Assembly (NCBI RefSeq): GCF_004010195.1
Contig: NC_057754.1
Location: 584,169-648,168, forward strand
Source: Chiloscyllium plagiosum
Lineage: Eukaryota
Reading direction: 5' to 3'
DNA length: 64,000 nucleotides
The translations under genes and the position numbers were made by a program. Positions 7,110 through 38,866 of the stretch are shown here, in pieces (positions within the stretch are counted from its first letter, which is position 1; each line of letters starts with the position of its first letter). The notes beneath the pieces were generated by a model. That model searched no databases, was not told where the DNA came from, and worked only from the letters and a program-made list of their open reading frames with translations.

Positions 7110-7161
7110 ATGAAGCTGTACAGACTGACACTCCTCCTGACACTCGTGCGGGCTGATATAG
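7110..7161 (+). CDS. Kazal-type protein A (SPINK-like), exon 1: signal peptide MKLYRLTLLLTLVRADI
   Basis: Kozak-like caccATG, hydrophobic leader, phase-1 donor G|GTTTGC (weak); resembles exon 1 of gene B (MKMNRL...). Confidence 0.7.
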
Positions 7162-8204
7162 GTTTGCTTTCTCTTCTCAGTGATATTGTTTTTCCTGCAT
7201 TCGCAAACTCAGTCTTCTTCAGTGGCTCCTCTATGAGTTGGTGCAAGGCGCTCTCCAAACGCAGGTTTATCCTTTGGTTGTTATTAGAAATTGCTGGAAA
7301 ATTTATTGGAAGCTGCTGGCTTTTCAGGACACAGGAAATGCAACGGGTCTGTGGAGGCAAGGTCAGGGTTATAATGCTTTCCCTCCTGGTTTTAATTTCA
7401 TAATTCCAGCCACATTTTATTTTTTGCTTTCTCTCTGTTAGTGTTTTAACTGTTCGGTCCAGTCTCACTGTCTGCTTCGAAGGCTTGGTGTGAGAACGTT
7501 CCTGTGGAGTGCTGTGGGCGCTATATCAGTGAAAGTTGTTCTTGTAATGTGGTTGCATCTGGGAGGGAGGGGCATTAGTTGGGGTAGCTGACGTCTGGAG
7601 AAAGAGTCAATCCTGCCCAGTTTTGCATTGATTTTACGAGCCATTTGCAATTCCCCCGTCACTGTGTTGAGTGATGTTCCTGACTGAGGTTTCTCTTCAT
7701 TCCTGCTGCAAGCAGAGATGCGAATCCCACTCCAATCGCTCTGCATCGTTATTACATTTAAAATTACCAGCTAAACACAATGTTCTTTACATCCTTATGC
7801 CCAATCCTAATGTATTAAACATGGTTCATCACACACTTCCATCAAGCTTCTTTGAAACCAAAACTAATAGCGAGAGTGAGAGAGAAAGAGAGAACCAGAC
7901 AGCGATAACAAGACAGTGAGAGAGAGACATTTAGAATTAAAGGTGAGACACAGGGAGAGAGAAAGAGACAGATGGACCGCAAAACAGTAAAATATCAGTA
8001 ATACTTGGAAATAAATGAATGAACTGGAGGCCTGTTCTGAAGTTTACCGGAGGAGCCAGACTAATAATATTATACTGTGTTTAAAACAGAGAAAGCCAGT
8101 AGAGAGAGACATGAAGAGGGAAAAAGAAAACGTGAGATAAAGAAGCAAAGTGTGAGAAAGAAAAAACAGAGAGAAACAGTCAGAGAGAGACCAAAAGAAC
8201 TATG

Positions 8205-8580
8205 AATCAGAAACAAAAACCGAAGTTGCTTAAAACAAAAGTTGCTAGAAAAGCTCAGCTGGTCTGGCAGCATCTGTGAAGACAAATCAGAGTTATATGT
8301 TCTGTGAAGTGTCTACCAGACCTGCAACGTTAATTTTGATTTCTCTCCACAGATGTCAGACCTGCTGAGCTTTTCCAAAACTGGGTGTAGGTTTGCTCGC
8401 TGAGCTGGAAGGTTCATTTTCAGAAGTTTCGTCACCATACTAGGTAACATCTTCAGTCGTATGGTGATGAAATGTCTGAAAATGAACCTTCCAGCTCAGC
8501 GAGCAAACTTACATCCAAAACGTCAACCTGAGCTACAAATCTTCTCAAATGATTTCCAACACTTTCAGTTTTTGTTTCTA
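8205..8580. mobile_element. Cluster of short Penelope-type inverted repeats
   Basis: ctggaaaagctcagc.../...gctgagcttttcca arms; hammerhead-like core on the minus strand at 8425-8456. Confidence 0.6.
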
Positions 8581-8649
8581 AAGAGAGAGGTGCATAAACA
8601 GATTGAGAGAGGCACTGAGAGTGAGACAGAAATCAACAGTGAGAGAAAG

Positions 8650-9000
8650 TAAACACTCCCTCAGTGCTGACACACCGACAGTGCAGCACTGCCTCAGCAC
8701 TGATCCTGCGACAGTGCCTGCTCCCTCAGCACTGACCCTCTGATAGTGCAGCACTGCTTCAGCACTGACCATCCAACAGTGCGGTGCTCCCTCACAGCAA
8801 CCCTCCCACAGTGTGGACCTCCCTCAGCATTGTCCTGTGACAGTGCAGCGCTCCCTCTTTACTGACCCTATGACAGTGCAGCACTTCCTCAGTACTAACC
8901 CGCTGACAGTGCAGTGCTCTCTCAATACTGGCCGTCTGACAGTGCAGCATCCGCTCAAAAGCACTCACCCTTGGATAGTGGGCACTCCCTCAATCGGGCA
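8650..9000 (-). repeat. 33-bp DeuSINE-derived minisatellite, reverse orientation
   Basis: Reverse complement of the unit at 6288 and 32665. Confidence 0.85.
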
Positions 9001-9291
9001 GCTGTTCTTCAATTACCGAGCTCTTATCATTCAGTTGAGGATTAAGAGATGAGGGAGATTGCTCCACTTTTGTCCTGCCACATACATAACTTTCAAATTG
9101 AATGGCTGTAACAACAAACCCCATCTAAACAGTCTGGAATATTTGTCCTTAAATTTCTCCGCAAATGTCAATGGGTTATGATCAGTGTATATGATTGTCT
9201 CAGGCCATTCATGCTGAATATGCAGATTGTCCTGGGGTGATTTTCCTGTAAATGTATAATTGCTGACATTGTGTGTGTTTCTGTATTTCAG

Positions 9292-9317
9292 ATGTACCAG
9301 TGCCTGCTTCATATATT
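9292..9317 (+). CDS. Kazal-type protein A, exon 2 (26 nt: D-VPVPASYI)
   Basis: Acceptor ctgtatttcag and donor GTGAGT; phase 1 to phase 0, as in SPINK exon 2. Confidence 0.75.
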
Positions 9318-12300
9318 GTGAGTTTCAAGATTTAGCTTTCTTTATTGGTGATGCAAATTTGTTTGTTTTGACTGTATTATGGACTAGGCTACAACCATTC
9401 AAAACATTTCAAGAAAGTAGCCCAGACTCTAGCTTTGCTAGTTGTTTTAAGCAGGTGTAATGCAGATTTTTCAGGGTATGCAGTTGGTCAACCCACATAG
9501 TTTTAAACAAAACAATATCCAAAGACGGCTTAATTTTAAAACCCTTTAGTCCTAAACTGTTAATACTCTGTAACACACACATGCATGCATTACATTGACA
9601 ATAAACATGCAAACACACACAACTGCATTCTGTTTTAGTCTGTTTTACTCCTGCCACTGAACGCCTCCCTTTCTCATTCAAGTTTCGACAATGCATCGTT
9701 AATCACATTTTCTCATCCTGCCACATGCAGAATTTTCAAATTGAATGGCTGTAACAACAAACCCCATCTAAACAGTCGGGAATATCTGTCCTTAAATTTC
9801 TCCGCAAATGTCAATGGGTTATGATCAGCGTATATGATTTTCTCAGATACATTATTGGTAACATAAACATTGAAATGTTATAATGCCAACACTAAGCTCA
9901 AAGTCTCTTTCTCAACCTTTGAATATTTCTGCTGATGAATGTTCAGTTTCCTGGAGAAATACCCAATAGGTCTTTCTATCTTCTTGTCGTCTTCCTGCAA
10001 CAGCACAGCACCGATACCTGTATCACTTGCATGAGATAGCCACCTTGAGTGGCTTTGCGTAATTAGATATGGCTAATACTGGGACAATGGTTAACACAGC
10101 TTTCAAATGCCTTTCGACAGTCCGCTGAAATTTGGCTGAAATTTCTTGCCTTTCATTAACAATTCTGTGAGTGGAGCAGCCACACTGCTAAAATTTGGTA
10201 CGAATTTTTGATAAAATCCACTCAATCCCAGGAATTGTAGTACTGCTGTTTTTGTCAGTGGTCTGGGAAACTCCCCAAATATCTTTGTTTTTGCATCCTG
10301 GGTGGCCATTTGTCCATGTCCAATAATATGTTCCAGGAAGGTGACTTGGGCTTTGGCAAGTTCACTTTTAGCAAGGTTTATCATCAAGCCTGCCTTCTGA
10401 AATCATTCAAGTAAGTCTGATAAATGTTGCAAATGTTCCTTCCATGTGTGACTAAAAATCACCAGGTCATCTATATATATATATATATATACAACAGAAT
10501 TGGGTAATCCGGCAATGACCTTATTGATTAGTCTCTGACATGTGGCCGGCACATTTTTCATACCAAATGGCATGACTTTAAACTGATGCAGTCCATTCGG
10601 TGTTACAAAACCCAAAATTGTCTTCAAGCTTTCTGACAAATGTACCTGTGAGTATCCTCTGAGAAAGTCCAACTTAGAAATATAAGTAGATTGTCCAACC
10701 TTTTCAACACAGTCTTCCAAACATGGAATCGGATATGTATCAGTCTTTGCAACTGCTTTGACTTTACGATAGTCCACACATACCATCTGGTTTGGCACCA
10801 TTACTATGGGTGAGCTCTAGTCACTGTAACTCACTTTGATTGTATCGTCTTGGAGCATGCGTTCAATCTCCTTTTGATCCTGTGCCAACTTTGGAGGGTT
10901 TTATCTAAAAGACTATTGCTTTATTGGAACAGCATCTCCTATATCTACATCATGCATAATTAGGTTAGTACTTCCAAGCTTATTTCCACATAACTCTTTC
11001 AGGTCATTTCAATTTTCCTCTGGAAGGTAACTCAATAATTTATCCCAATTTTTGACAAATTCCTCATTGTCCAATTTAATTTGAAGATTGTCCAATTCAG
11101 AATCCTCTGAACTTGGTTCTTCCCACTGTGCTGTAACCAATGACACACTCTCCTCCTGCTTTCCTTCTCTGCCAAAATATCTTTCAAGCATATTCGCATG
11201 ACACAGTCTGTGATATTTCTTTCTGTCTGGAGTCCTTATCAAATAGTTCACCTCACCTAATTTCCTATCGACTTAATAAGGTCCACTAAACCTTGCTTTT
11301 AAAGGTTCACCTATCATTGGAAATAACACTAACACCTAATCTCAGATCGCAAAGTTGCGAGTCTTTGATTTCTCAACTGCTTCCTGTTTCATTGTAAGCT
11401 GTGATATTTTTAAATGCTGTCTAGCCAACTCCCCTGCTCTATTTAATTGTTCCTGAAAATTTGACACGTAGTTCAAATATGCGATCTCTGAATTCTGACT
11501 TACAAATTTCTCCTTAGTCAATTTTAACGGTCCTCTCACTTCATGCCCAAAAACTAATTCAAATGGACTGAATTTGTTTGATTCATTTGGTGCATCTCTG
11601 ATCACAAGAAGCACAGATGAAATTCCCTTATCCCAGTCAGCTAGATAGTCTTGATTATAAGCCCTCATCGTGGTCTTTAATGTCTTTAATGGTCTTTAAC
11701 GTCCAATGCCACCTTTCTAGCACTCCCTGTGATCCTGGATGGTTCACAATAGATTTGAATTATTTTATTCCTAAATTGTCCGTAACTTCCTTGAATACTT
11801 TTGATGTAAAGTTTGACTTTTGATCTGATTGTATCTCTGTGTGTAGTCCATATATAGTGAAATATTTGGGTAATTCCTCTACGATCCTTTTAGCTGTGAT
11901 ATTGCGTTATGGAACAGCCTCTGGAAATCTAGTGCACACATCCATTATTAATTACAAATACTGATTCCCACTTGTTTTAGGTAGTGGTCTGATGCAATCA
12001 ATTAAGACTCTTGTAAAAGGTTCCTCAAATGCAGGAATAGGTATTAAAGGTGCGGCTTTTATTACTGCCTGCGGTATTCCAATTACCTGACATGTATGAT
12101 ATGTCTGGCAAAATTCAGCTACAGCTGAAAATGTGTTGCTGGAAAAGCGCAGCAGGTCAGGCAGCATCCAAGGAGCAGGAGAATCAATGTTTCGGGCATG
12201 AGCCCTTCTTCAGGAATATCAGGAACATCAGGAAAATTCAGCTACATCCTTGTGCAGTTCAGGCCAGTAAAAATGTTTTTGAATTTTAGCTTGAGTTTTT

Positions 12301-12922
12301 CACACTCCTAAATGACCTCCTAGCAGTAGCTCACATGCCACACACATCTCCTTTCTATAACCCACTGGCAATGCAACTTGATGAAATTCTGCCCATTTGT
12401 CATCTGCCTGAATATGTGATGGTCTCCATTTCCTCATTAAAACATCATTTTGAAGATAATAACTTTCAGGGATACATTTGGATTCTTTTTCTGTGTACGC
12501 TGTTTGACACAGTTGCTTTAAATTTTAATCTTTCTGTTGTAGCTGTAATTTATCTGAGCTAAAGATGTCTGCTGTGTCAGCTATCTATTCCTGCTTTGTC
12601 TCCACCATTCGATCAAACAGGGTCTCTGGTAATTCCACTTCAATTTTCTTATCTGTACTCTTTGATCTCTTCTGTTTCAACTGGCGACTTTGTGACCTCG
12701 TTACCACACAGTCAGGAAAAATCCCAGGATGTGTGTCCTGCAATAGTTCAGTTGCCTGAGTTTCCGCTAGCGTTTCGAACGCAGTAGGCAGCACTCCTAC
12801 CTGTGAACCAACTATATCATTAGTAAGGACAAATTGTATTTTTGGAGCTGAGAGTTTGTCTAGTATTCCTCTGAAAAATTCTCCACTCTTCACTGGAAAC
12901 TTTAACCTCACTTTACATAATT

Positions 12923-15900
12923 TACCAGAGCGGCGAGGAGAGAAGGAGAGGTGAAGCGAGGGCTGCCGGGAAGGGTGAGTTTTCCCGCATTAAAAGGAAC
13001 TTACCTCGGGAGTCAGGCTTTCATTTGCTGAGAGGTGCAAGGGAGGAGCGAAGGACTTCTGGGAAGTCATATATTTGTGTGGTTGTGTTGTCCAAAACAC
13101 TACTCGGGTAGTGTCTCCCACCCATCCTCCTCCTCGAACCAAAAAAAAAGGTTCTGTGCGCCAGTTTGGTAACGAGTTTATTTTTTATTCCTTATTTTTT
13201 CAACAGTCTCTTTGGGAATTTAGAATAGCGGGAATGGAGGTTAGGGCAGTTGAATGTTCCTCCTGCAGAATGTGGGAGGTAAGGGTCACCACTAGTGACC
13301 CTGCTGACTACATCTGCAGGAAGTGCACCCAACTCCAGCTCCTCGAAAACCACATTAGGGAACTGGAGCCGGAGCTGGATGAACTTCGGATCATTCGGGA
13401 GGTAGAGGGAGTTATTGAGAGGAGTTACAGGGAGGTAGGCACTCCTCAGGTACAAGAAAAAGGCAGATGGGTTACAGTCAGGAGATGGAAAGGGAACCGG
13501 CAGGCAGTGCAGGGGTCCCCTGTGGCCATTCCCCTCAACAATAAGTATACCGTTTTGGATACTGTTGGGGGGAACGACGTACCGGGGAAAGCAGTGGGGC
13601 ACAGGACTCTGGTACAGAGTCTGTCCCTGCTGCTCAGAAGGGAAAGGGGAAGAGGACCACAGCAGCTGTCATTGGGGACTCCATAGTTAGGGGTACAGAT
13701 AGGAGATTCTGTGGGGACGAGACAGACTCACAGTTGGTATGTTGCCTCCCAGGTGCCAGGGTTCGTGATGTCTCTGATCGTGTTTTTGGGATCCTTAAGG
13801 GGGAGAGGAAGCAGCCCCAAGTCGTGGTCCACATAGGCACCAACAACATAGGTAGGAAGAGAGATGGGGATTTAAGGCAGCAATTCAGGGAGCTAGGATG
13901 AAATCTTAGAGCTAGGACGAACAGAGTTGTTGTCTCTGGTTTGTTGCCCGTGCCATGTGCTAGTGAGGTAAGGAACAGGGAGAGAGAGGAGTTGAACATG
14001 TGGCTACAGGGATGGTGCAGGAGGGTGGGTTTTGGATTCTTCGATAATTGGGGCTTTTTCGATAATTGGGTAGGTGGGACTGCTACAAGCAGGATTGTCT
14101 TCATCTGAACCAGAGGAGTACCAAAATCATTGGGGGGGGACATTCGCTAAGGCTATTGGGGTGGGTTTAAACTAATCCAGCAGGGGGATGGGAACCAAAA
14201 TTGTAGTTCAAGTATAGAAAAGGTTGAGAGTAGGGAGGTCCAAAATCAAGTTTCAGGGACGCAAGATGGCACCAGCAAGCAAGAAGTTGCTTTGAAGTGT
14301 GTCTACTTCAACGCCAGGAGCATCCAGAATAAGGTGGGTGAACTTGCAGTGTGGGTTGGTACCTGGGACTTCGATGTTGTGACCATTTCTGAGACATGGA
14401 TAGAGCAGGGACAGGAATGGTGTTGCAGGTTCCAGGATTTAGATGTTTCAGGAAGAACAGAGAAGATGGTAAAATTGGGGGAGGTGTGGCATTGTTGGTC
14501 AAGGACAGTATTACAGTTGCAGAAAGGATGTTTAGGGTCTCGTCAATTGAGGTAGTATGGGCTGAGGTTAGAAACAGGAAAGGAGAGGTCACCCTGTTGG
14601 GAGTTTTCTATAGGCCTCCGAATAGTTCCAGAGATGTGGAGGAAAGGATCGCAAAGGTGATTCTCGATAGGAGTGAGAGAGACGGGGTAGTTGTCATGGG
14701 GGACTTCAACTTTCCAAATATTGACTGGGAACACTACAGTACAAGTACTATAGATGGGTCAGTTTTTGTCCAGTGTGTGCAGGAGAGCTGCCTGCCCCTT
14801 GTTGGCCAGTATGTAGACTGGCCAACAAGGGGCGAAGCCACATTAGATTTGGTACTGGGTAAAGAGCCCAGCCAGGTGTTAGACTTGGAAGTAGGTGAGC
14901 ACTTTGGTGATAGCGATCACAATTCTGTTATGTTTACTTTAGTGATAGAAAGGGATAGGTGTATACCACTGGGCAAGAGTTCCAGCTGGGGGAAAGGCAA
15001 TTATCATGCAATTAGGCAAGATTTAGGAAACATAGGATGGGGAAGGAAACTGCAGGGGTTGGGCACATTAGAAATGTGGAGCTTATTCAAGGAAAAGCTC
15101 CTGTGTGTCCTAGATAAGTATGTACCTGTCAGGCAGGGAGGAAGCTGTAGAGTGCGGGAGCCGTGGTTTATGAAGGAAGTAGAATTTTTGGTCAAGAGGA
15201 AGAAGAAGGCTTATGTTATGATGAGATGTGAAGGCTCAGTTAGGGCGCTTGAGGGTTACAAGGTAGCCAGGAAAGACCTAAAGAGAGAGCTCAGAAGAGC
15301 CAGGAGGAGACATGAGAAGTTGTTGGTGGATAGGATAAGGGTAAACCCTAAGGCTTTCTAAAGGTGTTTAAGGAATAAAAGAATGATGAGAGTAAGATTA
15401 GGGCCAATCAAGGATAGTAGTGGGAAGTTGTGTGTGGAGTCAGAGGAGATAGGGGAAGCACTAAATGAATATTTTTCGACAGTATTCACTCTAGAAAACG
15501 ACAATGTTGTCAAGGAGATTACTGAGATACAGGCTACTAGACTGGGGGTGGGATTGAGATTCACAAGGAAGAGGTATTAGAAATCCTGCAGAGTGTAAAA
15601 ATAGATAAGTCCCTTGGGTCGGATGGAATTTATCCTAGGATCCTCTGGAAAGCCAGGGAGGAGATTGCCGAGCCTTTGGCATTGATCTTTAAATCGTCAT
15701 TGTCTACAGGAATAGTGCCAGAAGACTGGAGGATAGCAAATGTGGTTCCCCTGTTCAAGGAGAGGAGTAGAGACAACCCAGGTAATTATAGACCAGTGAG
15801 TCTTACTTCAGTTGTTGGCAAAGTGTTGGAAAAGGTTATAAGAGATAGGATTTATGATCATCTAGAAAAGAATAATTTGATTACGGATAGTCAGTATGGT

Positions 15901-17152
15901 TTTTGAAGGGTAGGTCGTGCCTCACAAACCTTATTGAGTTATTTGAGAAGGTGACCAAAGAGGTAGATGAGAGTAAACCAGTTGATGTGGTGTATACGGA
16001 TTTCAGCAAGGCGTTCGATAAGGTTCCCCACAGTAGGCTATTGTACAAAATGCGGAAGAATGGGATTGTGGGAGATATAGCAGTTTGGATCAGTAATTGG
16101 CTTGCTGAAAGAAGACAGAGGGTGGTGGTTGATAGGAAATGTTCATCCTGAAGTCCAGTTACTAGTGGTGTACCACAAGGGTTGGTGTTGGGTCCACTGC
16201 TGTTCATCATTTTTATAAATGACCTGGATGAGGGCGTAGAAGGATGGGTTAGTAAATTTGCAGATGACACTAAGGTTGGTGGAGTTGTGGATAGTGATGA
16301 AGGATGTTGTAGGTTACAGAGAGACATAGATAAGCTGTAAAGCTGGGCTGAGAGGTGGCAAATGGAGTTTAATGCAGACAAGTGTGAGGTGATTCACTTC
16401 GGTTGGAGTAACTGGAATGCAAAGTACTGGGCCAATGGTAAGATTCTTGGTAGTGTAGATGAGCAGAGAGATCTCGGTGTCCATGTACACAGATCCTTGA
16501 AAGTTGCCACCCAGGTTGACAGGGTTGTTAAGAAGGCATACAGTGTTTTAGCTTTTATTATTAGAGGGATTGAGTTCTGGAACCATGAGGTTATGCTGCA
16601 GCTGTACAAAACTCTGGTGCGGCCGCACTTGGAGTATTGTGTAGAGTTCTGGTCACCGCATTATAAGAAGGATGTGGAAACTTTGGAAAGGGTGCAGAGG
16701 AGATTTACTAGGATGTTGCCTGGTATGGAGGGAAGGTCTTATGAGGAAAGGCTGAGGGACTTGAGGCTGTTTTCGTTAGAGAGAAGAAGGTTGAGAGGTG
16801 ACTTAATAGAGACATGTAAGATAATCAGAGGGTTAGATAGTGTGGACAGGGAGAGCCTTTTTCCAAGTGTGGTGACGGTGAGCACAAAGGGGCATAGCTT
16901 TAAATTGAGGGGTGATAGATATAGGACAGATGTCAGAGGTAGTCTCTTTACTCAGAGAGTAGTAAGGATATGGAATGCTTTGCCTGCAACGGTAGTAGAT
17001 TCGCCAACTTTAAGTACATTTAAGTCGTCATTGGACAAGCATATGGACGTACATGGAATAGTGTAGGTTAGATGGGCTGCAGATTGGTATGACAGGTCGG
17101 CGCAACATTGAGGGCCAAAGGGCCTGTACTGTGCTGTAATGTTCTATGTTCT
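12923..17152 (+). mobile_element. Near-full-length CR1 LINE (ORF1 zinc finger/coiled coil + SGNH esterase; ORF2 APE + RT) nested in the Gypsy protease region
   Basis: CSSC...CRKC motif; GDS esterase motif (VIGDSIVRG); ORF2 motifs GDFNFPNIDW, SDHN, FADD; (gttctat)n tail; ATAATT target duplication at 12917-12922 and 17153-17158; several stops and frameshifts. Confidence 0.92.
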
Positions 17153-18837
17153 ATAATTGAGCGCTTCTTGTCTCACCATGAATTCCCGTTACTCATACAT
17201 TTTCTGGCAATAGTCCTTCAGAGATATATATCTCCTCATATTTCAACATCAGAGATTGAGAGTATCCTGTATCTCTTAATATTGTAACCTCTTTACCTGC
17301 TGCTCCTGGCTTATGCGAGTAAACTTTACCTTTGCATGTGTATGGTTTAAGAAGATCTGGCACTTCTTCCTTAACCAACCTCTGACCAGCTTGTACATTC
17401 TGGTGCAGATTTCTAGCCTCCACTGTGCTTTCTGTTACCATTGTAACAAAACTCACTGACTATTTCCTGTCTTCCTACATCTGGCTTCTTCTAACTCACC
17501 AACACTGTGATTTCATGTGGTCCACTTTATTGCAGTGAAAACACCAGAGCTTTTTAACTTCTCTTTCCCCTTTAAGAGTTATCCTTATGATCTTCACCAA
17601 GATCTACCTCTCCCTTTCCATGTGAGGATTCCTCTTTTCCCCAGATTCTATCCCTCACGGATTGAAACTGATTTTGGAAGCCAAACTTTGATTTATGGAC
17701 CAACTCATAATCTTCAGCCATTTCAGCTGCTAATCTTGCCATTTTAACTCTCTGTTCTTCAACATGACTTCTCACTAGTTCAGGCAGTGAATTTTTGAAC
17801 TCCTCCAAAATAAAAGGCTCTCTAAGAGTATCACAAGTTTGCTGTATTTTTAATGCCCTTACCCATCTATCAAAAGTACTTTGTTTGATTATTTCAAACT
17901 TAATGTAAGTTTGACCAGGGTTCCTCCTTAGATTCCTGAAATATTGTCTGTAGGTTCCTGACACAAGCTCATATGCACTTACGATGGCTTTCTTCACCTT
18001 CTCATATGCCCCGGGTACCTCCTCTGATAGTGATCCAAATACCTCACTAGCTCTACCTACATGTTTTGTTTGGTTCAGCAAAATCCACATGGTCACTGGC
18101 CACTGCCTTTGTTTAGCCACCCTTACAAATGAGATGAAAAAGGCTTCCACATCCTTCTCATCAAATTTAGACAAAGCTTGAACATATTTAAACTTTCTCA
18201 CCAGGCTTTTGGCTACCGTGAGTTTGTTCATCCTCACTCTCTTCCTCACTGAACTTACCTTCAGCCTTCATCTCCATCCTTTTAAGCTGACTTTCCTGTC
18301 TAAGTGCCAATTTCTGAAGTTCAAACTCCCTCTATTTCTTCCTTTACTCACTCTCCTTTTCTCTCTCTTCTCTCTTTCTCCCTCTCCCTCTCTTTCTTTT
18401 TCTTTTTGTTCTGCTAAAGTGATTCATTCTTTTTCTCTTTCCTCTGCTTTTAATCACAATTCCTTGGGGTTTTTTTTTTGCCTCTAACTCAATCTGCTTT
18501 TTTTCAATTGCATTTTAGCCATCTCTAAAGATTCTGATGGTATTTCCAGCAAATTCTCCTTTCCTTATGGAAGGAGGCAGCTCCAGCTCCAGATTGTCTG
18601 CTAATTCCAGCAGTTTGCACCTTAATCACCATTTGTAAAACCCGTAAAGTCACTTCTTCCACCCCCTGAAAACTCTTGGTGACTGAAGGAGCCATTGCTA
18701 TCCCAAGCAATGGTTAAACCAACCGATTTCAACACCAGAACAAAAGACACTAACACCTACCACTCACTGCCTTCGAGTCCAACAACCTGAATCCCAAATC
18801 GGAACCGTAGAGCAAATCCCACAAAGATCCCCCAGTC

Positions 18838-19480: not shown

Positions 19481-19516
19481 ACTGTTAATAAAATGTATAC
19501 ATTCAATCTCTTATAG

Positions 19517-19629
19517 CTGAAGTGTTCCCAGTTCCCAACACACGAACATTGCAATGAGGATTCTGAATTTATTTGTGGCACAGATGGACAGGATTATGGA
19601 AATGCTTGCATCCTTTGTGAATATAACAG
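19517..19629 (+). CDS. Kazal-type protein A, exon 3 (LKCSQFPTHEHCNEDSEFICGTDGQDYGNACILCEYN)
   Basis: 113-nt exon, acceptor ctcttatag, donor GTAATG; Kazal spacing C-x8-C-x7-C-x10-C-x2-C with CGTDG..Y.N.C. Confidence 0.92.
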
Positions 19630-20349
19630 GTAATGAATGTAAAGAAAAGACCAGATGTGATTCCTTTTGTTGTAAAATTTAAGAACTAATTGTTAAACTT
19701 GGAATGAACCACAGTTTGACTACACATGGAGTTACTATAAACAGTTCTGGATTTTGAGAATTGTTACAGTGTGACGAGAGGAAAGTGCTGGTAATCAAAC
19801 TGCACAATTCACCAGTCAGAACATTCATGTAAATGTATTGATTCAATCACCGACTTAGCTAATTGCTCCCCATTGCTACAGGTATTCCTGAATAATGGTG
19901 ACTTTCATCAGATTTACTTAGTGAACTCGAAATAATCCATTGATTATGAAACAAAACCTATTTTTAAAAACAAGTGTTTAAACTGGTTAGCACTAAGCTA
20001 TAGTCCAGAATTAGAATGATATCATTGTTTAATTCCAAACTAAGCATACTCACACAATACAAAAGACAACGCAAATCTACAGAGATGATGGTTAAAAAGG
20101 TCCGGGAAAGAAAATGCCCTTTTTTGCCTATGGTCTGAAAATAAAAGATAGAATTGGATAAATTCTCACAGCCCAGTGTGTTTCTTGTTGATGGAGTCGA
20201 ATTGGTAACAGTCTGATGGAAGACGTCCCAAATAAGCTTTGGCTTATTCATTATCTTGACTAGTTTGTACAGCTTCTCAGGCTGTACAAACTAGTCAAGA
20301 TAATGAGAAATAGAAATTTTATTGAGTTCCCAAAAGCTTCAACCAGTAA

Positions 20350-20790
20350 GACGATGAGACCAGAAGACCATAAGACACCAGAACAGAAATTAGGCCATTC
20401 AGCCCCTCAAGTCTGCTCCGGCATTCAATCATGGCTGATACGTTTCTCAATCCCATTCGCCCACTTTCTCCCCTTAACCTTTGATCCCCATGACAATCGA
20501 GAACTTATCTATCTCTGACTTAAATATAGCTGAAAATGTGTCGTTTCTCCTCTTAAATATACTTAAATATACTCAATGACCTGGCCTCCACAGCCTTCTA
20601 TGGCAATGAATTCCATAGATTCATAATGCTCTGGCTGAAGAAATTTCTCCCCATCTCTGTTCTAAAGGGTCTACCCTTTACTTTAAAGCTGTACCCTTGG
20701 GTAAGAGTCTTTGCTGCAAATGAAAACACCTTCCCAATGTCCACTCTGTCCAGGTCATTCAGTATTCTGTAAGTTTCAATTAGACCCCCC
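20350..20790 (-). mobile_element. CR1/L2-type LINE 3' fragment
   Basis: Minus-strand LIETYRILNDLDRV...FFSQSIMNLWNSLP, typical ORF2 C-terminus. Confidence 0.75.
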
Positions 20791-20809
20791 CCAACCCCAC
20801 CCCCAGGAC

Positions 20810-21650
20810 AACTAGCCATTTGGATACAGAACTAGCTTGAAGGTAGAAGACGAGGGTGGTGGTGGAGGGTTGTTTTTCAGACTGGAGGCCTGTGACCAGT
20901 GGAGTGCCTCAAGGATCGGGGCGAGGTCCACTACTTTTTGTCATTTATATAAATGAATTGGATGTGAATATAGGAGGTATAGTTGGTAAGTTTGCAGATG
21001 ACACCAAAGTTGGAGGTGTAGTGGACAGCGAGAAAGGTTACCTCAGAGTACAATGGGATTTTGATCAGATGGGCAAATGGGCTGAGGAGTGGCAAATGGA
21101 ATTTGATTTAGAAAAATGCGAGGTGCTGCAGTTTGGAAAAGGAAATCAGAGCAGGGCTTATACAGTTAATGATGAAGTCCTGGGGAGTGTTGCTGAACAA
21201 AGAGATGTCGGAGTGCAGGTTCATTGTTCCTTGAAAGTAGAGATGCAAGTAGATAGGATAGTGAAGAAAGCATTCGGTATGCTTTCCTTTATTGGTCAGA
21301 GCAGTGAGTATAGGAGTTGGGAGGTCATGTTGTGGACATACAGGACATTGGTTAGGCCACTTTTGGAGCAGTGCATGCAGTTCTGGTCTCCTTCCTATCG
21401 GAAAGAAGTTGTGAAACGTGAAAGGGTTCAGAAAAGATTTACAAGGATGTTGCCAGGGTTGGAAGATTTGAGCTATAGGGAGAGGCTGAATAGGCTGGGA
21501 CTGTTTACTCTGGAATGTCGGAGGCTGAGGGGTGACCTTATAGAGGTTTACAAAATTATGAGGGGCATGGAGAGTATAAATAGGCAAGGTCTTTTCCCTG
21601 GGGTCGGGGAGTCCAGAACTAGAGGGCATAGATTTAGGGTGAGAGGTGAG
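20810..21650 (+). mobile_element. CR1 RT fragment in intron 3 of Kazal gene A
   Basis: 278-aa ORF with SGVPQGS, FADDTK, RRLRGDLIEVYK. Confidence 0.9.
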
Positions 21651-22289
21651 ACCACAAGCATGGGCCCATCAGTATCAAACCATTCTGAATAAATCCAATG
21701 GGAAAATTCAGAAGAAGCATCCTCCCTGCCCAGAGATTCTGTTGGGGGTGGGAGTGGGGGGGGAGGGGCAGTGCGCGAAATTTGGGACTCGCTCCCACAG
21801 GAAGAGGTCAAGGTGCGTCATGTTGACATGTGTAAGGGATAAACACCTGAGGGAGAAAGCTACAGATGGACAGGGTGAGATGGAGATGAAAGTTTGGGTG
21901 CAGAGGTGCAAGAAGTTAAAATTCTGAGTTGAAATTTGCGGTAAATATTCAAAAAGTGTAAGAGTGTTTGTGGGCAGCTGGTGGTAGTGACTGATTCCAA
22001 CCTGAAGCCTTTGCCTGTCGATAAGGCTATGGTGTTCATCCTGTTGCCACTGTGCCAGTCCTGATACAGAATTAAAGACAGTGGGACTGCAGTCCCAGTG
22101 GAATCTGAAACAACACTTAGCTGGTTCCGTCAATACCAACTTGTGCCTTGGCATCAGATCACAAGCCCGGCTCTGATGTTTCCTGCTGACGGGCCCAAGG
22201 TGTGACTCTGACATTGGAAAATTCCTAGATATCTTCATATGGATGGGAGATGTTCGATGGCTTGATGGTTGTCTTTGTTTCCCCTTCAG

Positions 22290-22371
22290 GCTGCACAAGA
22301 AAGATGTTCGCGTCCAGCACCTCGGATTCTGCACATGTGCTCAAAAGGCAAGGAGGCAACCTGTTAATTAA
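22290..22371 (+). CDS. Kazal-type protein A, exon 4 (R-LHKKDVRVQHLGFCTCAQKARRQPVN-stop)
   Basis: Acceptor tttccccttcag; completes the phase-2 codon; C5-x17-C6 spacing is exact; TAA at 22369-22371. Confidence 0.9.
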
Positions 22372-22418
22372 ACCAAGCTTTCACAAAGAGAAATCTCTCT
22401 CAGAATGGTTTCTCCTTG

Positions 22419-22424
22419 AATAAA
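22419..22424 (+). terminator. Polyadenylation signal of Kazal gene A
   Basis: AATAAA 47 nt after the stop codon, GT-rich sequence downstream. Confidence 0.65.
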
Positions 22425-22544
22425 GAAAGTGGACCATGAACTGTTTGTGGCATTTCCTTTGTCTGATAGGAATGTAACAGCAGGGGTAAGGTATTCGGTC
22501 CTTTGAACCCATTTCACGATTCAGTGAGATCATAGAAACAGAGA

Positions 22545-25205
22545 GACCTAGGGAACTGCAGGTACTTGGTTCCTTGAAAGTGACATCGCAGGTAGTCAGG
22601 CTGGTGAAGAAGGCATTTGGCATGTTTGCTTTTGTCAGTCAGAACACTAAGTACAGGAGTTGGGATGTCAAGTTCCACCTGTGCAGGACATTAGTGAGGC
22701 CACTTTTAGAGCACGACATACAATTCTGGTCACCCCGCTATAGGAAGGATGTTGTTAAACTTGAGAGGGTGCAAAACAGATATACAAGGATGTTACTAGG
22801 AGGGTTTAGATTATATGGAGAGACTGGATAGACTAGGACGGTTTTCACTGGAGTACAGGAGATTGAAGGGTGACCTTATAGAGGTTTATAAAGTCATGAG
22901 GGGTATAGATAAGGTTAATAGTAAATGTCTTTTGTCCAGGGTAGGAGTGTCCAAAACTAGAGGGCATGGGTTTAAGGGGAGAGGGGAAATATTTAAAAGG
23001 GACCTAAGGGGCAAACTTTTCACACAGAGGGTGGTGCATGTATGGAACAAGCTGTCAGAGGAAGTTGTCGAAGCTGGTACTATTACAGCATTTAAAAGGC
23101 GTCTGGAAGGGTATATGAATAGGAAGGGTTTAGAAGAATATGGGCAAAATGCTGGCAAATGGGACTAGATTAATTTAGGATATCTGGTCAGTGTGGACGA
23201 TTTAGACCGAAGGGTCTGTTTATATGCTGTATGACTCTATGGCTGATCAGGCCACGCTCTGTGCTCTACTTTCCTACAGTCCAGTTGCTCCATTCCAATC
23301 TCAGACTGTGTTGGACAGATTGTGTTAGCAGCAGTTTCCAGGTACATTCCCAATGGAGCAACAATCACCAACCTGCCATCACATCCAATACGTCCCTCAA
23401 TCAAACCTTCTTCCACCAGCAGGAGCCAATAGGGCTCCCCCTGTAACTGGAGCCCTGGTAGGGCTAACCCTCCACCTCACACTTGTCCACAGTGAAATTC
23501 ATCTGCCACTTCTCTGCCCAGTCCACCAACTTGTTTTTGCCCTTGCAAATTTCTACAACCACCTCACGGGTTACAACTCTCCCAGATTTTATACAAACTT
23601 TGACATTGTCTCCTGCACATCGACATCGAGATCATTGACGTATTTCAGGAAAAGCAAGGGCTGTAAAACTATTCCTTTGGGAACTCCACTACAAACCTTC
23701 CCCTGGCCCGAAAAATATCCACTGACCATTACTCTCTCTGTTTTTGTATCCTTCGGATAACTTTGAAGGTATGTTGTTTCTGTCCCCACTTTTTCATACT
23801 TTCTTACTGTATTAACCACCTGAAAATCAGCGCATATCAGATCAACAGCATTACTCTCATCAACCCTCTGTGTTACCTCAACAAAAATCCCCAACTAATT
23901 AGTTAAACGCATTTTTCCCATAGAAAATCTGTGCTGGTTCTCCTTGATGTTCATTTGTCCATGTGACTATTCTTGCATTCAGAATTATTGGTTTGAAAAT
24001 GAAATCTGCCTTCACGACCACATTTCCCTTTCTCCCTGTGTGGTTGGTACTCCCTACAAAGATGTCCTTCAGCAACTCCATCACATCTTTGACCCTTGGC
24101 ACCAGGGAGGCTACACACCATCCTGGTGTCATGTTTACTACCACAGAAACCCCTGTCTATGGAATTCCCAGTCCATGGAATCCACTGTCTATGGAATCCC
24201 TGGTCACTTTTGCCCTTCTGTTCCTTTATCTCTCCCCAGCTCCTGCACAGTGGAGACAATCTTGATGCCATGAGCTTGTTTCTATAGAATCCATAGAATG
24301 TCCCAATTCATTTGGCCCCGCAGCTCCACATCAACCCATTGGACAATATCCCACCCAGACCCATCCCCCTACCCTTTCCCTGTACCTCTACATTTTCCAT
24401 GGCTAATGCACCTAACCTACACATCCCTGGACACAGGCTATTAGATTAGATGGGATTGAGGTTCATAAGGAGGAGGTGTTAGCAATTTTGGAAAGTGTGA
24501 AAATAAATACATTCCCTGGGCCGGATGGAATTTACCCTAGGATTCTCTGGGAAGCCAGAGAGGAGATTGCCAAGCTTTTGGCTTTGATCTTTATGTTGTC
24601 ACTGTCTACAGGAATAGTGCCAGAAGACTGAAAGATAGCAAATGTTGTTCCCTTGTTCAAGAAGGGAGTAGAGACAACCCTGGTAATTATAGACTTGTGA
24701 GCCTAATATGGTTATGGGTAAAGTGTTGGAAAGCATTATAAGAGACAGGATTTATAAGCATCTAGAAAGGAAAAATTTGATTAGGGATACTCAACACAGT
24801 TTTGTGAAGGGTAGGTCATGTCTCACAAACCTTATTGAGTTCTTTGAGAAGGTGACCAAACAGGTGGATGAGGATGTGGTGTATATGGATTTCAGTAAGG
24901 TGTTTGATAAGGTTCCCCACGGTAAGCTATTGCAGAAAATACGGAGGCATGGGATTGAGGGTGATTCAGCAGTTTGGTCAGAAATTGGCTTGCTGAAAGA
25001 AGACAGAGGGTGGTGGCTGATGGGAAATGTTCATCCTGGAGTCTAGTTACTAGTGGTGTACTACAAGGATCTGTTTTGGGGCCACTGCTGTTTGTCATTT
25101 TTATAAGTGACCTGGATGTGGGCGTAGGAGGATGGGTTAATAAATTTGCGGATGACACTAAGGTCAGTGGAGTTGTGGATAGTGCTGAAAGATGTTGCAG
25201 GTTAC
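22545..25205. mobile_element. Stack of CR1 fragments (+ 22545-23240; - ~23300-24270; + 24435-25205) with a SINE tail fragment
   Basis: RT-domain ORF fragments on both strands. Confidence 0.85.
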
Positions 25206-27395
25206 ACTCACTGTTCCACTCACTCACTGACACACTCACACACTCTCTTACTCACTCCTTACACACACATTCACTCACTCTCACTCACTAACACTGACTC
25301 ACTCACTGATCTACACACTCACTGATCCACTCACTCAATCAAATTCACACTCACTCACTGACTCACTCACTCACTCACTCTAATTCGCATTCACTCACTC
25401 ACACACTCAAGCACATGCTCGCTCACTATAATTCACACCCACTCACTCATCCACTCACTAAGTCATACACTTCTTCACTTGCTGATTCATTTACTCACTG
25501 ACTCACTCATACACTCACTCACTCACTCACCCTAATTTGCACTCATTCACACACTCGCTTACTCAGACTCAGTCACTCTAATTTGCACTCAGTCATCCAC
25601 TTTCACACTCACTAAGTCACACTCACTCACTCACTGATCTACTCACACTCACTCACTCATCCACTCCCACACTCACTCACACTCACACTCACTCATTCAA
25701 TCTAATTTGCACACACTCACACTGACTGACTCACTCTAATTCTCATCCAGTCACTCATTCACTCATCCACCCACTGACTCACTCACACACACACTCACTG
25801 ATCCTCTCACTCACTGACTCACTCGCACAATCACTCATTCACATACTCAATCACTTATCCACTCACTCACTCTATTTCGCACTCACTCAGTCACACACTC
25901 TGTCACTCATTCACTCACTCATCCACTCTCACATTCATTCTAGTTCACACTCACACACACTCATTCACTTACTGATCCACTATCACACTCACTCACTCTA
26001 ATTCGCACGTACTCACTCAAACTCACACACACACTCACTCACTCTCTTACTCAATCGCTCACTCACACATTCACTGACACACTGATCTACTCACCCACTC
26101 ACTGAGTGATCCACTTACTCACTCCCTCACTCACTCACACTCACTCACTGAATCCAATTTGCACTCACTCACACTGACTGACTCATACACTCATTCTAAT
26201 TCTCACCCAGTCACTCATTCACTCACTCACTCATCCAACCACTGACTCACTCACACACACACTCACTGATCCACTCACTCACTGACTCACTCGCACAATC
26301 ACTCATTCACATACTCAATCACTTATCCACTCACTCACTCTATTTCGCACTCACTCAGTCACACACTCTGTCACTCATTCACTCACTCATCCACTCTCAC
26401 ATTCATTCTAGTTCACACTCACACACACTCATTCACTTACTGATCCACTATCACACTCACTCACTCTAATTCGCACGTACTCACTCAAACTCACACACAC
26501 ACTCACTCACTCTCTTACTCAATCGCTCACTCACACATTCACTGACACACTGATCTACTCACCCACTCACTGAGTGATCCACTTACTCACTCCCTCACTC
26601 ACTCACACTCACTCACTGAATCCAATTTGCACTCACTCACACTGACTGACTCATACACTCATTCTAATTCTCACCCAGTCACTCATTCACTCACTCACTC
26701 ATCCAACCACTGACTCACTCACACACACACTCACTGATCCACTCACTCACTGACTCACTCGCACAATCACTCATTCACATACTCAATCACTTATCCACAC
26801 ACTCACTCACTATTTCGCACTCACTCACTCAGTCACACACTTACTCTGTCACTCATTCACTCACTGATCTATCCTCACATTCACTCTAATTCACACTCAC
26901 ACTCACTCACTGATCCACTCTCACACTCACTCACTCTAATTCACACTCACTCAAACTCACACACACTCACTCTCACTCAATCACTCACTCACTCACACAT
27001 TCACTGACTCACTGATCCACTCACTCATTCACTCACACTCTCATTCAATCTAATTCGCACTCACTCACTGACCCATTCACACATTCATGCACTCAGTCAC
27101 ACATTCACTCACTCACTCTAATTCGCACTTACTGATCTACTCACTCACTTTCTCACACTCACTCACTCACTCATCTACTCTTACACTCACTCACCTTCTC
27201 ACTCACTCACACTCATTCACCAATTTGCTCTCACTCACTCAGTCACTCAGGCACACACTCATTCACTGATCCACTCACACACACTCACTCACTCCCTCAC
27301 TCTCTCATCACTCACTCACACTCACTCACACACTCACTTACACACATGCTTACTCATTCACATACTCATACACTCACACTCACTCACTCTCTCAA
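25203..27395. repeat. Degenerate (ACTC)n microsatellite with a ~468-bp higher-order period
   Basis: 2.2 kb of actc/acac variants; marker cgcacgtactc at 26004 and 26472. Confidence 0.95.
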
Positions 27396-28119: not shown

Positions 28120-28580
28120 TAGAATCTCTACAGTGTGGAAACAGGCCAGCCAGCCCAGTGGGTCCATGCCAACCCTCTAAAGGGCATCCTACCCAAACCC
28201 ATCCCACAATGCATTTTCTGTGGCCAATCCACCCTAGCCTGCAATCCCTGGACACTATGGGACAATTCCCATGGCCAATCCGCCCTAACCAACATATCCC
28301 TGGACACTATGGGACAATTTCCCATGGCCAATCCACCCTAACCTGCACTTCCCTGGACACTATAGGACAATTTCCAATGGGCAATCCACCCTAACCTGCA
28401 CATCCCCGGACACTATGGGACAGTTCCCATGGCCAATCCATCTTAACCTGCACACCTTTGGACTGTGGGAGGAAACCCACACAGACAGGGGAAAATGTGC
28501 AAACTCCACACAGACAGTTGCCCAAGGCTGGAATCGAACCCGGGTCCATAGCGCTGTGAGGCAACAGTGCTAACCAGTGA
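28120..28580 (-). mobile_element. HE1-like V-SINE with an internal ~52-bp tandem amplification
   Basis: Reverse SINE head at ~28500-28580; unit ggccaatccaccctaacctgcacatccctggacactatgggacaattcccat repeated 4-5 times. Confidence 0.85.
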
Positions 28581-29407
28581 TTACCTTGTTGTTGACCTGT
28601 TGTCTGCTAAAGTTACATTCTTTATAATAAATTGTGAATTTTTGTTTAAGTTATAAACTTGATGTCAAGATCTGTTATTTGTAAATTCTGGTTAAGAACA
28701 ATTGAGCAATTTTGAGGGTCATGGAATGGTTTTATTTCATAGTGCTGTGAATCTAGAGATAGTCAGGCTGATTTGGTTTAGCTTGCTGTCTAACACTATT
28801 GAGAACTTATTCCTCCAAATCAACAGCCCCTGGGGCCTCTGCTGGGGACCCTTTCATCTCCTGACAGTCTCAGGTTCCCCCAGGAAATGCTGGGAAGCAA
28901 AAAGGTCGAAGACTGATGAGTAAAGAAGGCTCTGCTCTGAGTCAGAGAGGTGCAGACTAAAACAAGATCCTGCTAGGTTCAGCTGTCTGATATACTACAA
29001 GTGTGGCATCTCTCTGATTGACTGACACAATCTCTCATCATCTACAGACTCAGGACAAATCTCTACAACTGCTCACATCCTGACAACTGCCTCACCTCCC
29101 TGATCTTGGACTCACTGGCGATTGATTCTGAATTGTGGAAGGCCTTTGATTTTTATGTGTTTAGGCAGCACATATCTCATTTCAGCTCAGACTGGGGTTG
29201 TTTAGTGAAAGCTAGCCATCTGGAAGTGGGGAATATAAGAACTGTATTGTGAAAAGCCTAGCTTTTACCTGCCACTTGCTGTTAAGGTTCAGCAAGCCAC
29301 ACTTTTAAAAAGCTTTGAAGCAACACTTCAGTCACTCGTTCATTGCAATCCAGGCAATTTCCAAGCAAATAGCTGTTGACAATCACACAGGAACAGGATG
29401 TCTCGTG

Positions 29408-29416
29408 ATATAAATA
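29408..29416 (+). promoter_or_regulatory. TATA box of Kazal gene B
   Basis: ATATAAATA about 50 nt upstream of the ATG. Confidence 0.7.
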
Positions 29417-29459
29417 CTTGCAGTGTCAAACCAGTGAACTCACTTCCAGCAATCTCACA

Positions 29460-29514
29460 ATGAAGATGAATCGATTGTTTCTCATCACTACCTCACTGCT
29501 TTTTATAGCGGCTG
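29460..29514 (+). CDS. Kazal-type protein B (SPINK-like), exon 1: signal peptide MKMNRLFLITTSLLFIAA
   Basis: 55 coding nt, phase-1 donor GTGGGT, hydrophobic leader, TATA box upstream. Confidence 0.85.
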
Positions 29515-29965
29515 GTGGGTAAGGTTCATCTCTCTGATGGTCTGATACTTGCAACTGAATGGGAGAGAGTGCTTCCTGATTACTGAAGTGGTCTTTGCAA
29601 CTGGAAACATGCCAAAGTGACAAACATCTGAGCATTTACCGTGATGCTGTGTAAGAGATGGTGACTGCAGCTATCACTATGAACAAGAAACTCTGCTTTA
29701 TCCTGGGACCACTAAACAAACCAATTCCCATTGTGAACGTGAGCTATGAGAATTGGGGCATTTTTAAGGGGTGATTCTGTCTTAGTTGTTAATTGAGACA
29801 TTATCAGTCCCTGTATTGCAGATTATTTACCTGTGCTTGTGTTAATCTTTGGTGAGAATCCTCACTCCACTTCCAAACGTCTTCCTGCTTGTTAAGCAAA
29901 TGTTTCAAGTGAACTTTGAGAAACTGTGCCCTATGTTACTAACTTTTTCCAATTTTTTGTTTCAG

Positions 29966-29988
29966 ACCAGCCAGGAGCAGGTATTGAG
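29966..29988 (+). CDS. Kazal-type protein B, exon 2 (23 nt: D-QPGAGIE)
   Basis: Strong acceptor ttttttgtttcag, donor GTAAGA; phase 1 to phase 0. Confidence 0.85.
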
Positions 29989-30093
29989 GTAAGATCTTCA
30001 GAAAGGCAGTTTCTGCATGTTGGGGAATGTATGTTTTGTTTTAAATGTTGTTACTAGTTGCTATCGTGTTAATTCTGGAATAATTTCTTGCAG

Positions 30094-30206
30094 TTAAAAT
30101 GTGATGATTATCCGAAAATCCCAGACTGTCCATCACGCTACATTCCCCTCTGTGGAACAAATGGCAAGGATTATCTAAACCCCTGCTATTTGTGTCGCCA
30201 CAACAA
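30094..30206 (+). CDS. Kazal-type protein B, exon 3 (LKCDDYPKIPDCPSRYIPLCGTNGKDYLNPCYLCRHN)
   Basis: 113 nt, same length and phase as gene A exon 3; canonical Kazal cysteine spacing. Confidence 0.93.
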
Positions 30207-30742
30207 GTGGGTAATCTTTATAAAGTTTCTTGTTCAGTAATTCAACACCTCTGCAAAATCTCACATTGCAAATGAGGATGGAAATAAATTGGAATTTATA
30301 GATTCTCTGAGTGATCTGTGCGTTTCAAGAACAGTGTCTTAGTGCCAGTCCTTTGTATGATTTTCTGAATGTCTGCAGAAAGTGCTGGAGAAACTCAGCA
30401 GGACTGGCTGCATCTGTGGAGAGAGAAACAGGGTTAATGTATTGAGTCAATATGACACTTCTCTGTAAAATCAAAAGTCCTATTGAAGTTGAATCATTAA
30501 CTCTGCTTCTGTCCCTACAGAGGCTGCCTTACCTGTGGTGCATCTCTAATACTTTCTGTTTACATTTCAGATTTTAAATGCTGAATATCTTGTAGCTCAA
30601 TAGAGTTGGGGAGGAGGAGGCACGAGGGGTTAATTGTGTTTAAAAAGTGGACATGAGGGCCAGGTATTAGTTATAGCAAAGTGGTTGTGGGTGAATGGCC
30701 TTCCTATTACATTTTCATTGTCACTGTTCATTCCGCTTCCAG

Positions 30743-30812
30743 GAGAACCGGAGAGAATGTTGCAATCTTACATGAAGGATTCTGTACCTGTCACGACATG
30801 AAACTCAGTTAA
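30743..30812 (+). CDS. Kazal-type protein B, exon 4 (K-RTGENVAILHEGFCTCHDMKLS-stop)
   Basis: Acceptor ttccgcttccag; V.I.H.G.C Kazal terminus; TAA at 30810-30812. Confidence 0.92.
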
Positions 30813-38775: not shown

Positions 38776-38866
38776 ATGAGGCTGTCGCGGCTGAAGCTCC
38801 GCTCGGTTTTTGTCGTCTATTTCTTGGTGTCGGTTTTGGGCCTAATGTACGCGCTGCTGCAGCTTG
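38776..38866 (+). CDS. B3GAT3: Glucuronosyltransferase I, exon 1 (cytoplasmic tail + transmembrane helix)
   Basis: gccATG MRLSRLKLRSVFVVYFLVSVLGLMYALLQL-G, matching the B3GAT3 N-terminus; donor GTCAGT, phase 1. Confidence 0.93.

What the first reader, a model, noticed from the sequence alone, without database searches (positions are those of the whole stretch)
7110..30812. Hidden tandem pair of secreted Kazal genes sharing a seventh cysteine (GFCTC)
Seen: two four-exon genes with identical intron phases (1,0,2) and 113-nt third exons splice to open frames. A is MKLYRLTLLLTLVRADIDVPVPASYILKCSQFPTHEHCNEDSEFICGTDGQDYGNACILCEYNRLHKKDVRVQHLGFCTCAQKARRQPVN. B is MKMNRLFLITTSLLFIAADQPGAGIELKCDDYPKIPDCPSRYIPLCGTNGKDYLNPCYLCRHNKRTGENVAILHEGFCTCHDMKLS. 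They share only about 23 of 54 residues across the domain, yet both keep C6-T-C7 plus a short tail. Known: classical Kazal domains have six cysteines in three disulfides and single-domain SPINKs usually end at or just after C6. Inference: the conserved unpaired cysteine may link A/B heterodimers, homodimers or a carrier protein, defining a possibly uncharacterised elasmobranch subfamily, here located beside B3GAT3.
Basis: partly seen in the sequence, partly recalled or inferred. Interest (0 to 1): 0.82.

Follow-up and report, generated by a model that had tools for sequence, protein, structure and literature searches.

The report
Shark Kazal pair with spare cysteine
Two neighbouring, spliced and expressed shark genes encode small Kazal-family proteins, predicted to be secreted, that keep a seventh cysteine across three shark orders; that cysteine likely ties each chain to a second protein chain, which is untested.

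Summary
Both four-exon genes splice with GT-AG introns, phases 1,0,2, into open 90 and 86 aa frames. Both match Pfam Kazal_1 and A's model has the Kazal fold. B's three junctions and poly(A) site are in RNA reads; A's exon 3-4 junction is in an RNA contig. They are not hidden: RefSeq has orthologs in five other sharks as 'trypsin inhibitor ClTI-1-like', and a merged A+B model that this window reproduces exactly. The seventh cysteine is in 12 of 12 shark records, six species, three orders; the motif is G-[FY]-C-x-C, not fixed GFCTC. No ray or chimaera record was found. P1 is Glu/Asp in A and Ser/Thr in B, so the trypsin-inhibitor label is likely wrong. The exon pattern is ordinary SPINK architecture (recalled). 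Most likely the cysteine forms an interchain disulfide (about 0.55), as the seventh cysteine of trefoil factors can; an A-B heterodimer specifically is about 0.2. No paper on this subfamily turned up in eight searches. New variant of a known kind.

The parts
7110..7161 (+). Gene A exon 1 (coding): predicted signal peptide, phase-1 donor
   Evidence: matches the N-terminus of RefSeq P0010 letter for letter; not covered by an RNA lay
9292..9317 (+). Gene A exon 2 (26 nt), phase-0 donor
   Evidence: matches P0010 and P0009; not covered by an RNA lay
19517..19629 (+). Gene A exon 3 (113 nt): Kazal C1-C5, reactive loop with P1 Glu40
   Evidence: Pfam Kazal_1 E 3.1e-09; RNA depth and contig
22290..22371 (+). 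Gene A exon 4 (coding): C6-T-C7 (C7 codon 22336-22338), basic tail, stop; AATAAA at 22419
29408..29414 (+). TATA-like box upstream of gene B (function inferred)
29460..29514 (+). Gene B exon 1 (coding, 55 nt): predicted signal peptide, phase-1 donor
29966..29988 (+). Gene B exon 2 (23 nt), phase-0 donor; reads carry C at 29981
   Evidence: table 5c
30094..30206 (+). Gene B exon 3 (113 nt): Kazal C1-C5, reactive loop with P1 Ser40
   Evidence: Pfam Kazal_1 E 1.7e-09
30743..30900 (+). Gene B exon 4: C6-T-C7 (C7 codon 30789-30791), stop at 30812, AGTAAA at 30880, poly(A) added at 30898-30900
   Evidence: 36 and 9 reads with poly(A) loose ends
38776..48272 (+). Neighbour: B3GAT3-like GT43 gene, five coding exons (context only, not part of the finding)

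Best explanation
Two spliced, transcribed paralogous genes encode single-domain Kazal proteins, predicted to be secreted, whose conserved seventh cysteine likely forms a disulfide bond to a second protein chain. Step by step: (1) shown: the genes are spliced and transcribed from the + strand; (2) inferred: exon 1 is a signal peptide, giving mature chains of about 7-8.5 kDa; (3) predicted: six cysteines close the usual Kazal 1-5, 2-4, 3-6 bonds, leaving C7 in the short tail two residues after C6; (4) inferred: since free thiols tend to hold secretory proteins in the ER and C7 lacks the run of acidic neighbours that lets TFF1 leave as a monomer, C7 most likely pairs with another chain: A-A, B-B or A-B dimers where both are made, or a larger carrier such as a mucus protein; (5) inferred from P1: neither chain targets trypsin; A (P1 Glu/Asp) would fit subtilisin-like or acid-preferring proteases and B (P2 Pro, P1 Ser/Thr) small-pocket proteases, so a dimer would act as a two-headed inhibitor.
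For: Splicing: B e1-e2-e3 in 11 reads (10 starts) and e3-e4 in 39 reads (31 starts) in run X11 (about 2 in 100 of the run read); fully spliced contigs in X1 and X3; poly(A) at 30898-30900. A: a 229-nt X1 contig joins exon 3 to exon 4; X11 depth is 18 and 28 on the exon bins and 0 on six unique intron bins, 19721-20362. Both genes appear in the same two runs, X11 and X1. Conservation: C6-x-C7 in 12 of 12 shark records (P0001-P0010, P0015, P0016). Three of them (P0001-P0003) were found with a query that lacked C7. Across four divergent representatives 16 of 56 columns are invariant, C7 among them, the others being inside the Kazal domain or just before C1. A and B share 80 of 162 bases, and 11 of 23 identical residues use different codons, including C6 and the Thr, so the shared motif is old and not a recent conversion. 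Fold: model of the A ortholog, mean pLDDT 71, 81-89 over residues 41-80; best structural match turkey ovomucoid, Z 7.4, rmsd 1.9 A, 54 aligned. Precedent: TFF1/TFF3 seventh cysteine forms homodimers and heterodimers with GKN2 and FCGBP, and free thiols act as ER retention signals (PMC7177788, abstract and passages). P1 Glu Kazal domains inhibit subtilisin (PMC3082530, passages); trypsin-binding SPINK1 homologues all have Lys/Arg at P1 (PMC9850914, passages).
Against: No direct evidence of any disulfide, secretion or inhibitory activity. [quoted passage not shown] B has a conserved Asp two residues after C7 that might mask a thiol. Run X3 holds a spliced B contig and nothing on A's exon 3-4 bins, which would fit expression of B alone, though contigs do not show absence. 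Only one lineage was found in each of two species (catshark B, sevengill A), and no in-frame whale shark A. Nine of the 12 records came from queries containing C7 or are cluster mates, so the count is partly biased, and many are near copies. The tree separating A from B is weakly supported (75/47). A's loop (N-E-D-S-E-F) lacks the usual Pro before C3 and may not inhibit anything. No signal-peptide predictor was available; A's hydrophobic stretch is short in this species.
Confidence: 0.55

Rival explanations
1. C7 stays a free or small-thiol-capped cysteine on a monomer and serves as a redox buffer or reversible tether in a secretion, as proposed for TFF1.
For: TFF1 and Xenopus xP1 are mainly monomers with a free seventh thiol (PMC7177788). 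B keeps Asp at C7+2 in 4 of 4 species.
Against: No run of acidic residues around C7 as in TFF1; A's tail is neutral or basic, and the sevengill ortholog has Arg and Pro beside C7.
Confidence: 0.3
2. Subset of the best reading: A and B are an obligate disulfide-linked heterodimer, kept in tandem for that reason.
For: Tandem in this window; consecutive RefSeq accessions and equal contig lengths in H. ocellatum and C. punctatum; whale shark model X1 starts in A exon 3 and runs into B; both genes in X11 at depths of the same order, and both in X1.
Against: Tandem position is expected of any duplicate; X3 shows B without A; only one paralog was found in catshark and in sevengill; cell-level co-expression was not tested.
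Confidence: 0.2
3. C7 takes part in an intrachain bond (swapping with C6 or C1), leaving another cysteine free or giving a non-classical Kazal pairing.
For: Shifted disulfides are known in non-classical Kazal groups (PMC3082530); C7 is two residues from C6.
Against: C1-C6 spacing is classical and the model superposes on ovomucoid through C6; an odd number of cysteines still leaves one thiol over.
Confidence: 0.08
4. C7 is a neutral leftover with no function.
For: Few independent lineages sampled (six species).
Against: Kept in both paralogs while neighbouring residues and synonymous sites diverged; the sevengill A is only 28-29 of 52 identical to bamboo shark A yet keeps it.
Confidence: 0.05

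Closest known systems
Classical single-domain Kazal inhibitors (SPINK1/PSTI, SPINK2, SPINK4/PEC-60, SPINK6, SPINK7; ovomucoid third domains)
   Same: Pfam Kazal_1/Kazal_2, cysteine spacing C2-x7-C3-x10-C4-x2-C5-x17-C6, conserved Tyr and Asn, fold; four exons with phases 1,0,2 as in SPINK1 (recalled).
   Different: Those PDB chains end at C6 (e.g. 1ovo 56 of 56, 7qe9 61 of 61, 1pce 60 of 60, 2jxd 62 of 62, 2leo 66 of 66, 2n52 60 of 60). The shark proteins add x-C7 and a 6-10 residue tail, have eight residues between C1 and C2, and lack Lys/Arg at P1.
RefSeq 'trypsin inhibitor ClTI-1-like' models of sharks (XP_060711474/5, XP_072407298-300, XP_020372864, XP_072345386, XP_067831605/6) and XP_043538971 of Chiloscyllium plagiosum
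   Same: These are the orthologs; XP_043538971 is reproduced exactly from this window's exons.
   Different: Automatic names only. The name implies trypsin inhibition, which P1 does not support. XP_043538971 merges A with two exons of B, and no separate B protein of that species was among the 2 members of the B cluster.
Trefoil factors TFF1 and TFF3 (works-like analogy)
   Same: Small secreted three-disulfide domain plus a seventh C-terminal cysteine outside the domain (PMC7177788).
   Different: Unrelated fold; TFF1's cysteine sits in an acidic run; dimers and carrier adducts are shown for TFFs and only inferred here.
Multi-domain Kazal inhibitors (ovomucoid, CrSPI-1, rhodniin)
   Same: Two heads with different P1 residues in one molecule would be the outcome of an A-B dimer.
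   Different: There the heads are on one chain; here they would be joined by a disulfide between two gene products (untested).

Membership tests
Classical Kazal family (SPINK-type) | Six cysteines in Kazal spacing with G-x-[DN]-x-x-x-Y-x-N-x-C core | tested here: met
   (Kazal_1 37-38 bits, cut-off 21)
Classical Kazal family (SPINK-type) | Kazal fold: reactive loop, helix, small sheet | tested here: met
   Predicted model of the A ortholog P0009; Z 7.4, rmsd 1.9 A over 54 residues to 1z7k_B; Foldseek prob 1.00 to OMTKY3 but E only 4e-3. B's model failed (pLDDT 46).
Classical Kazal family (SPINK-type) | Disulfide pairing 1-5, 2-4, 3-6 | not testable with these tools
Classical Kazal family (SPINK-type) | Cleavable signal peptide | tested here: inconclusive
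   Basic N-region, hydrophobic core (mean hydropathy 2.7 and 2.2) and (-3,-1) sites after residue 15 (A) and 18 (B); no SignalP available
Classical Kazal family (SPINK-type) | Four-exon gene with intron phases 1,0,2 | tested here: met
   Phases; the SPINK1 pattern itself is recalled
Classical Kazal family (SPINK-type) | Standard-mechanism protease inhibition | not testable with these tools
   Needs enzyme assays
Trypsin-inhibiting Kazal proteins (SPINK1, ClTI-1 label) | Lys or Arg at P1 (second residue after C2) | tested here: not met
   P1 is Glu (A), Asp (sevengill A), Ser or Thr (B); register from alignment to ovomucoid third domains; rule from PMC9850914
Trefoil factor family | Trefoil domain | tested here: not met
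   Pfam gives Kazal only for the exon-3 peptides
Trefoil factor family | Seventh cysteine outside a three-disulfide domain | tested here: met
   Sequence; an analogy, not homology
Trefoil factor family | Seventh cysteine forms interchain disulfides | not testable with these tools
   Needs non-reducing gels or mass spectrometry

The most novel reading that the evidence does not exclude
Sharks build a two-headed protease inhibitor from two genes: A (acidic P1) and B (small P1) are co-secreted and locked by a C7-C7 disulfide into a covalent heterodimer, a shark-wide Kazal subfamily that reaches by interchain bonding what ovomucoid reaches by domain fusion.
Probability: 0.2. Interest if true: 0.65.

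Novelty: new variant of a known kind. Interest (0 to 1): 0.42.

Why it matters
If C7 is bonded between chains, this is a covalent-dimer or carrier-tethered form of a very well studied inhibitor scaffold, of which the searches here found no described example, and it gives a simple test (C80S, non-reducing gel). It also corrects annotation: the trypsin-inhibitor name is likely wrong, and the RefSeq model that matches this window fuses two genes. If C7 is merely capped, the finding is a modest shark-specific SPINK subfamily.

Tried and rejected
Complex prediction of the C. punctatum A and B mature chains gave no answer (score 0.03, mark 0.34); it is no evidence either way. AlphaFold2 on B with a 7-row alignment failed (pLDDT 46). 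No further Kazal exon in the window by tblastn or pattern scan. The stronger-looking donor at 29519 breaks B's frame and the listed joints use 29514. Recent gene conversion as the source of the shared motif: rejected. Profile search of the C-terminal 30 positions against 1.84 billion representatives gave 8 hits: 4 shark proteins and 4 repetitive non-Kazal sequences, which were dropped. Last word-index search gave 3 hits among 18 candidates; the one non-shark hit, a tailed-frog two-domain Kazal protein, has no C7 in either domain. ESM Atlas gave generic chordate Kazal clusters only. No listed holder was on record as RNA; the lays supplied the RNA evidence. Run X12 had 0 reads on A (no test); X2 had only an unspliced piece of B. 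In one search the displayed joint table was filled by LINE-derived joints, so no read count for A's junction was visible. Four look-ups of earlier findings returned nothing. Literature: searches listed all their hits, none on these genes by title or abstract start; two searches listed only 40 of 447 and 15 of 2,478 hits and were uninformative. PMC13101452's 'seventh cysteine' passage concerns an intron position in conkazals. PMC10230700 and PMC11979771 have no Kazal or SPINK mention in the main text; their supplements were not searched.

Full report
Observation. Gene A uses 7110-7161, 9292-9317, 19517-19629 and 22290-22371; gene B uses 29460-29514, 29966-29988, 30094-30206 and 30743-30812. All six introns are GT-AG, phases are 1,0,2, both third exons are 113 nt, and the frames give 90 and 86 residues with cysteines at 29, 38, 46, 57, 60, 78 and 80. 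Identity is 23 of 54 from LKC to C7. Neither the Kazal exon pattern nor H-x-G-[FY]-C-T-C occurred in 100 shuffles of the window. Both third exons pass Pfam Kazal_1. A five-exon GT43 gene, best matching B3GAT3 on summed scores, starts about 8 kb after B on the same strand.

Expression. For B, run X11 (raw poly(A) single-cell reads, about 2 in 100 read) has 11 reads joining exon 1 through exon 2 to exon 3, 39 reads joining exons 3 and 4, and poly(A) tails at 30898-30900; contigs in X1 and X3 hold all four exons; X2 holds only an unspliced piece. For A only exons 3-4 were laid: X11 depth is 18 and 28 on the exon bins and 0 on six unique intron bins, and one X1 contig joins the two exons; X3 and X12 show nothing on these exons. 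A's first two junctions rest on RefSeq models, not on reads seen here. The tissue is not known. Reads carry C at 29981 where the window has G, giving Ala as in three relatives; this is an allele, a species difference or an assembly error.

What is on record. B orthologs: whale shark, epaulette shark, Chiloscyllium punctatum and cloudy catshark. A orthologs: epaulette shark, C. punctatum and sharpnose sevengill. Most are automatically named 'trypsin inhibitor ClTI-1-like'. The C. plagiosum model XP_043538971 is rebuilt exactly from this window: A exons 1-3, A exon 4 cut at a GC donor after 22347, B exon 2 in another frame, and B exon 4. The window is therefore very likely from that species, and its public model merges the two genes. 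Two more models (whale shark X1, chiPu_0019210) start in A exon 3 in the wrong frame and run into B, which also places an A exon 3 upstream of B in whale shark.

The seventh cysteine. It is present in 12 of 12 shark records, from six species in Orectolobiformes, Carcharhiniformes and Hexanchiformes, on both sides of the Galeomorphii-Squalomorphii split. Three records were found with a query lacking C7; the rest were not, and many are near copies. The motif is G-[FY]-C-x-C: GYCTC in catshark, GFCRC in sevengill. Among four divergent representatives 16 of 56 columns are invariant and C7 is the only one after C6. A and B share 80 of 162 bases and differ at 11 of 23 codons for identical residues, so this is old constraint, not recent copying. 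Controls are thin: the one non-shark protein retrieved has no C7 in 2 of 2 domains, and the solved single-domain vertebrate chains named under Closest known systems end at C6. In agrin a cysteine can follow C6 by three positions as the next module begins (alignments), which is a different case. No ray, skate or chimaera ortholog was found, but the searches were of limited reach (8 hits), so absence is not shown.

Structure and specificity. The A ortholog's model is confident over the core and matches ovomucoid domains through C6 (Z 7.4, rmsd 1.9 A, 54 residues), with the tail predicted as a short, less certain helix. B did not fold confidently. By alignment to ovomucoid third domains, P1 is Glu40 in A (Asp in sevengill) and Ser40 in B (Ser or Thr in relatives, after P2 Pro). 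Trypsin-binding SPINK1 homologues all have Lys or Arg there (PMC9850914, passages), while P1 Glu domains inhibit subtilisin (PMC3082530, passages). Solved OMTKY3 variants with Glu, Asp, Ser and Thr at P1 are bound to SGPB (titles), so these residues are compatible with binding some proteases. The trypsin label is likely wrong; the true targets are unknown, and A's acidic loop may be inactive.

Mechanism. With six cysteines predicted in the classical bonds, one is left over in a chain predicted to pass through the ER. [quoted passage not shown] The shark C7 has no acidic run, so an interchain bond is the more likely outcome (0.55 in all, of which an obligate A-B pair about 0.2); a free or capped thiol is the main rival (0.3). 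Both genes appear together in two runs, and B alone in a third. None of this is a test of bonding.

Novelty. The genes are members of the classical Kazal family by spacing, profile, exon plan (SPINK1's plan is recalled) and predicted fold. They are on record only as automatic models. Eight literature searches (listings only) found no study of them or of a seven-cysteine SPINK subfamily; the library lacks most subscription and older biochemical papers, and no supplements were read, so a mention in expression tables could have been missed. Verdict: a real, shark-wide, apparently undescribed variant with one testable odd feature.

Noticed in passing
window 22290-22347 joined to 29966-29988 and 30743-30812: The RefSeq model XP_043538971 merges A with B through a GC donor and would carry two C-T-C tails (nine cysteines). 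Whale shark X1 and chiPu_0019210 also run from A into B. Read-through splicing or misprediction; not seen among the joints displayed.
   Followed up: partly
window 29981: Window G, RNA reads and contigs C (X11, X1, X3): Gly versus Ala at residue 24 of B.
   Followed up: partly
window 38776-48272: Five-exon B3GAT3-like gene on the + strand; a 500-N gap (38957-39456) lies in its first intron.
   Followed up: partly
window about 9000-18300 (A intron 2): Broken retroelement remnants: a LINE-like endonuclease/reverse transcriptase stretch on + (about 13000-17100) nested in a gypsy-like remnant on - (labels from recalled motifs translations). Further LINE fragments near 600-3350 and 20800-24300 are heavily covered by repeat-derived RNA.
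   Followed up: no
window 6290-6695, 8654-8992, 31574-32015, 32659-33394: Four arrays of a related 33-bp minisatellite flank the two genes.
   Followed up: no
window 25217-27394: CACT-rich low-complexity array with a 468-bp higher-order period between A and B.
   Followed up: no
window 7110-7161: A's signal region is one residue shorter than in C. punctatum and H. ocellatum and has an Arg near the predicted cleavage site.
   Followed up: no
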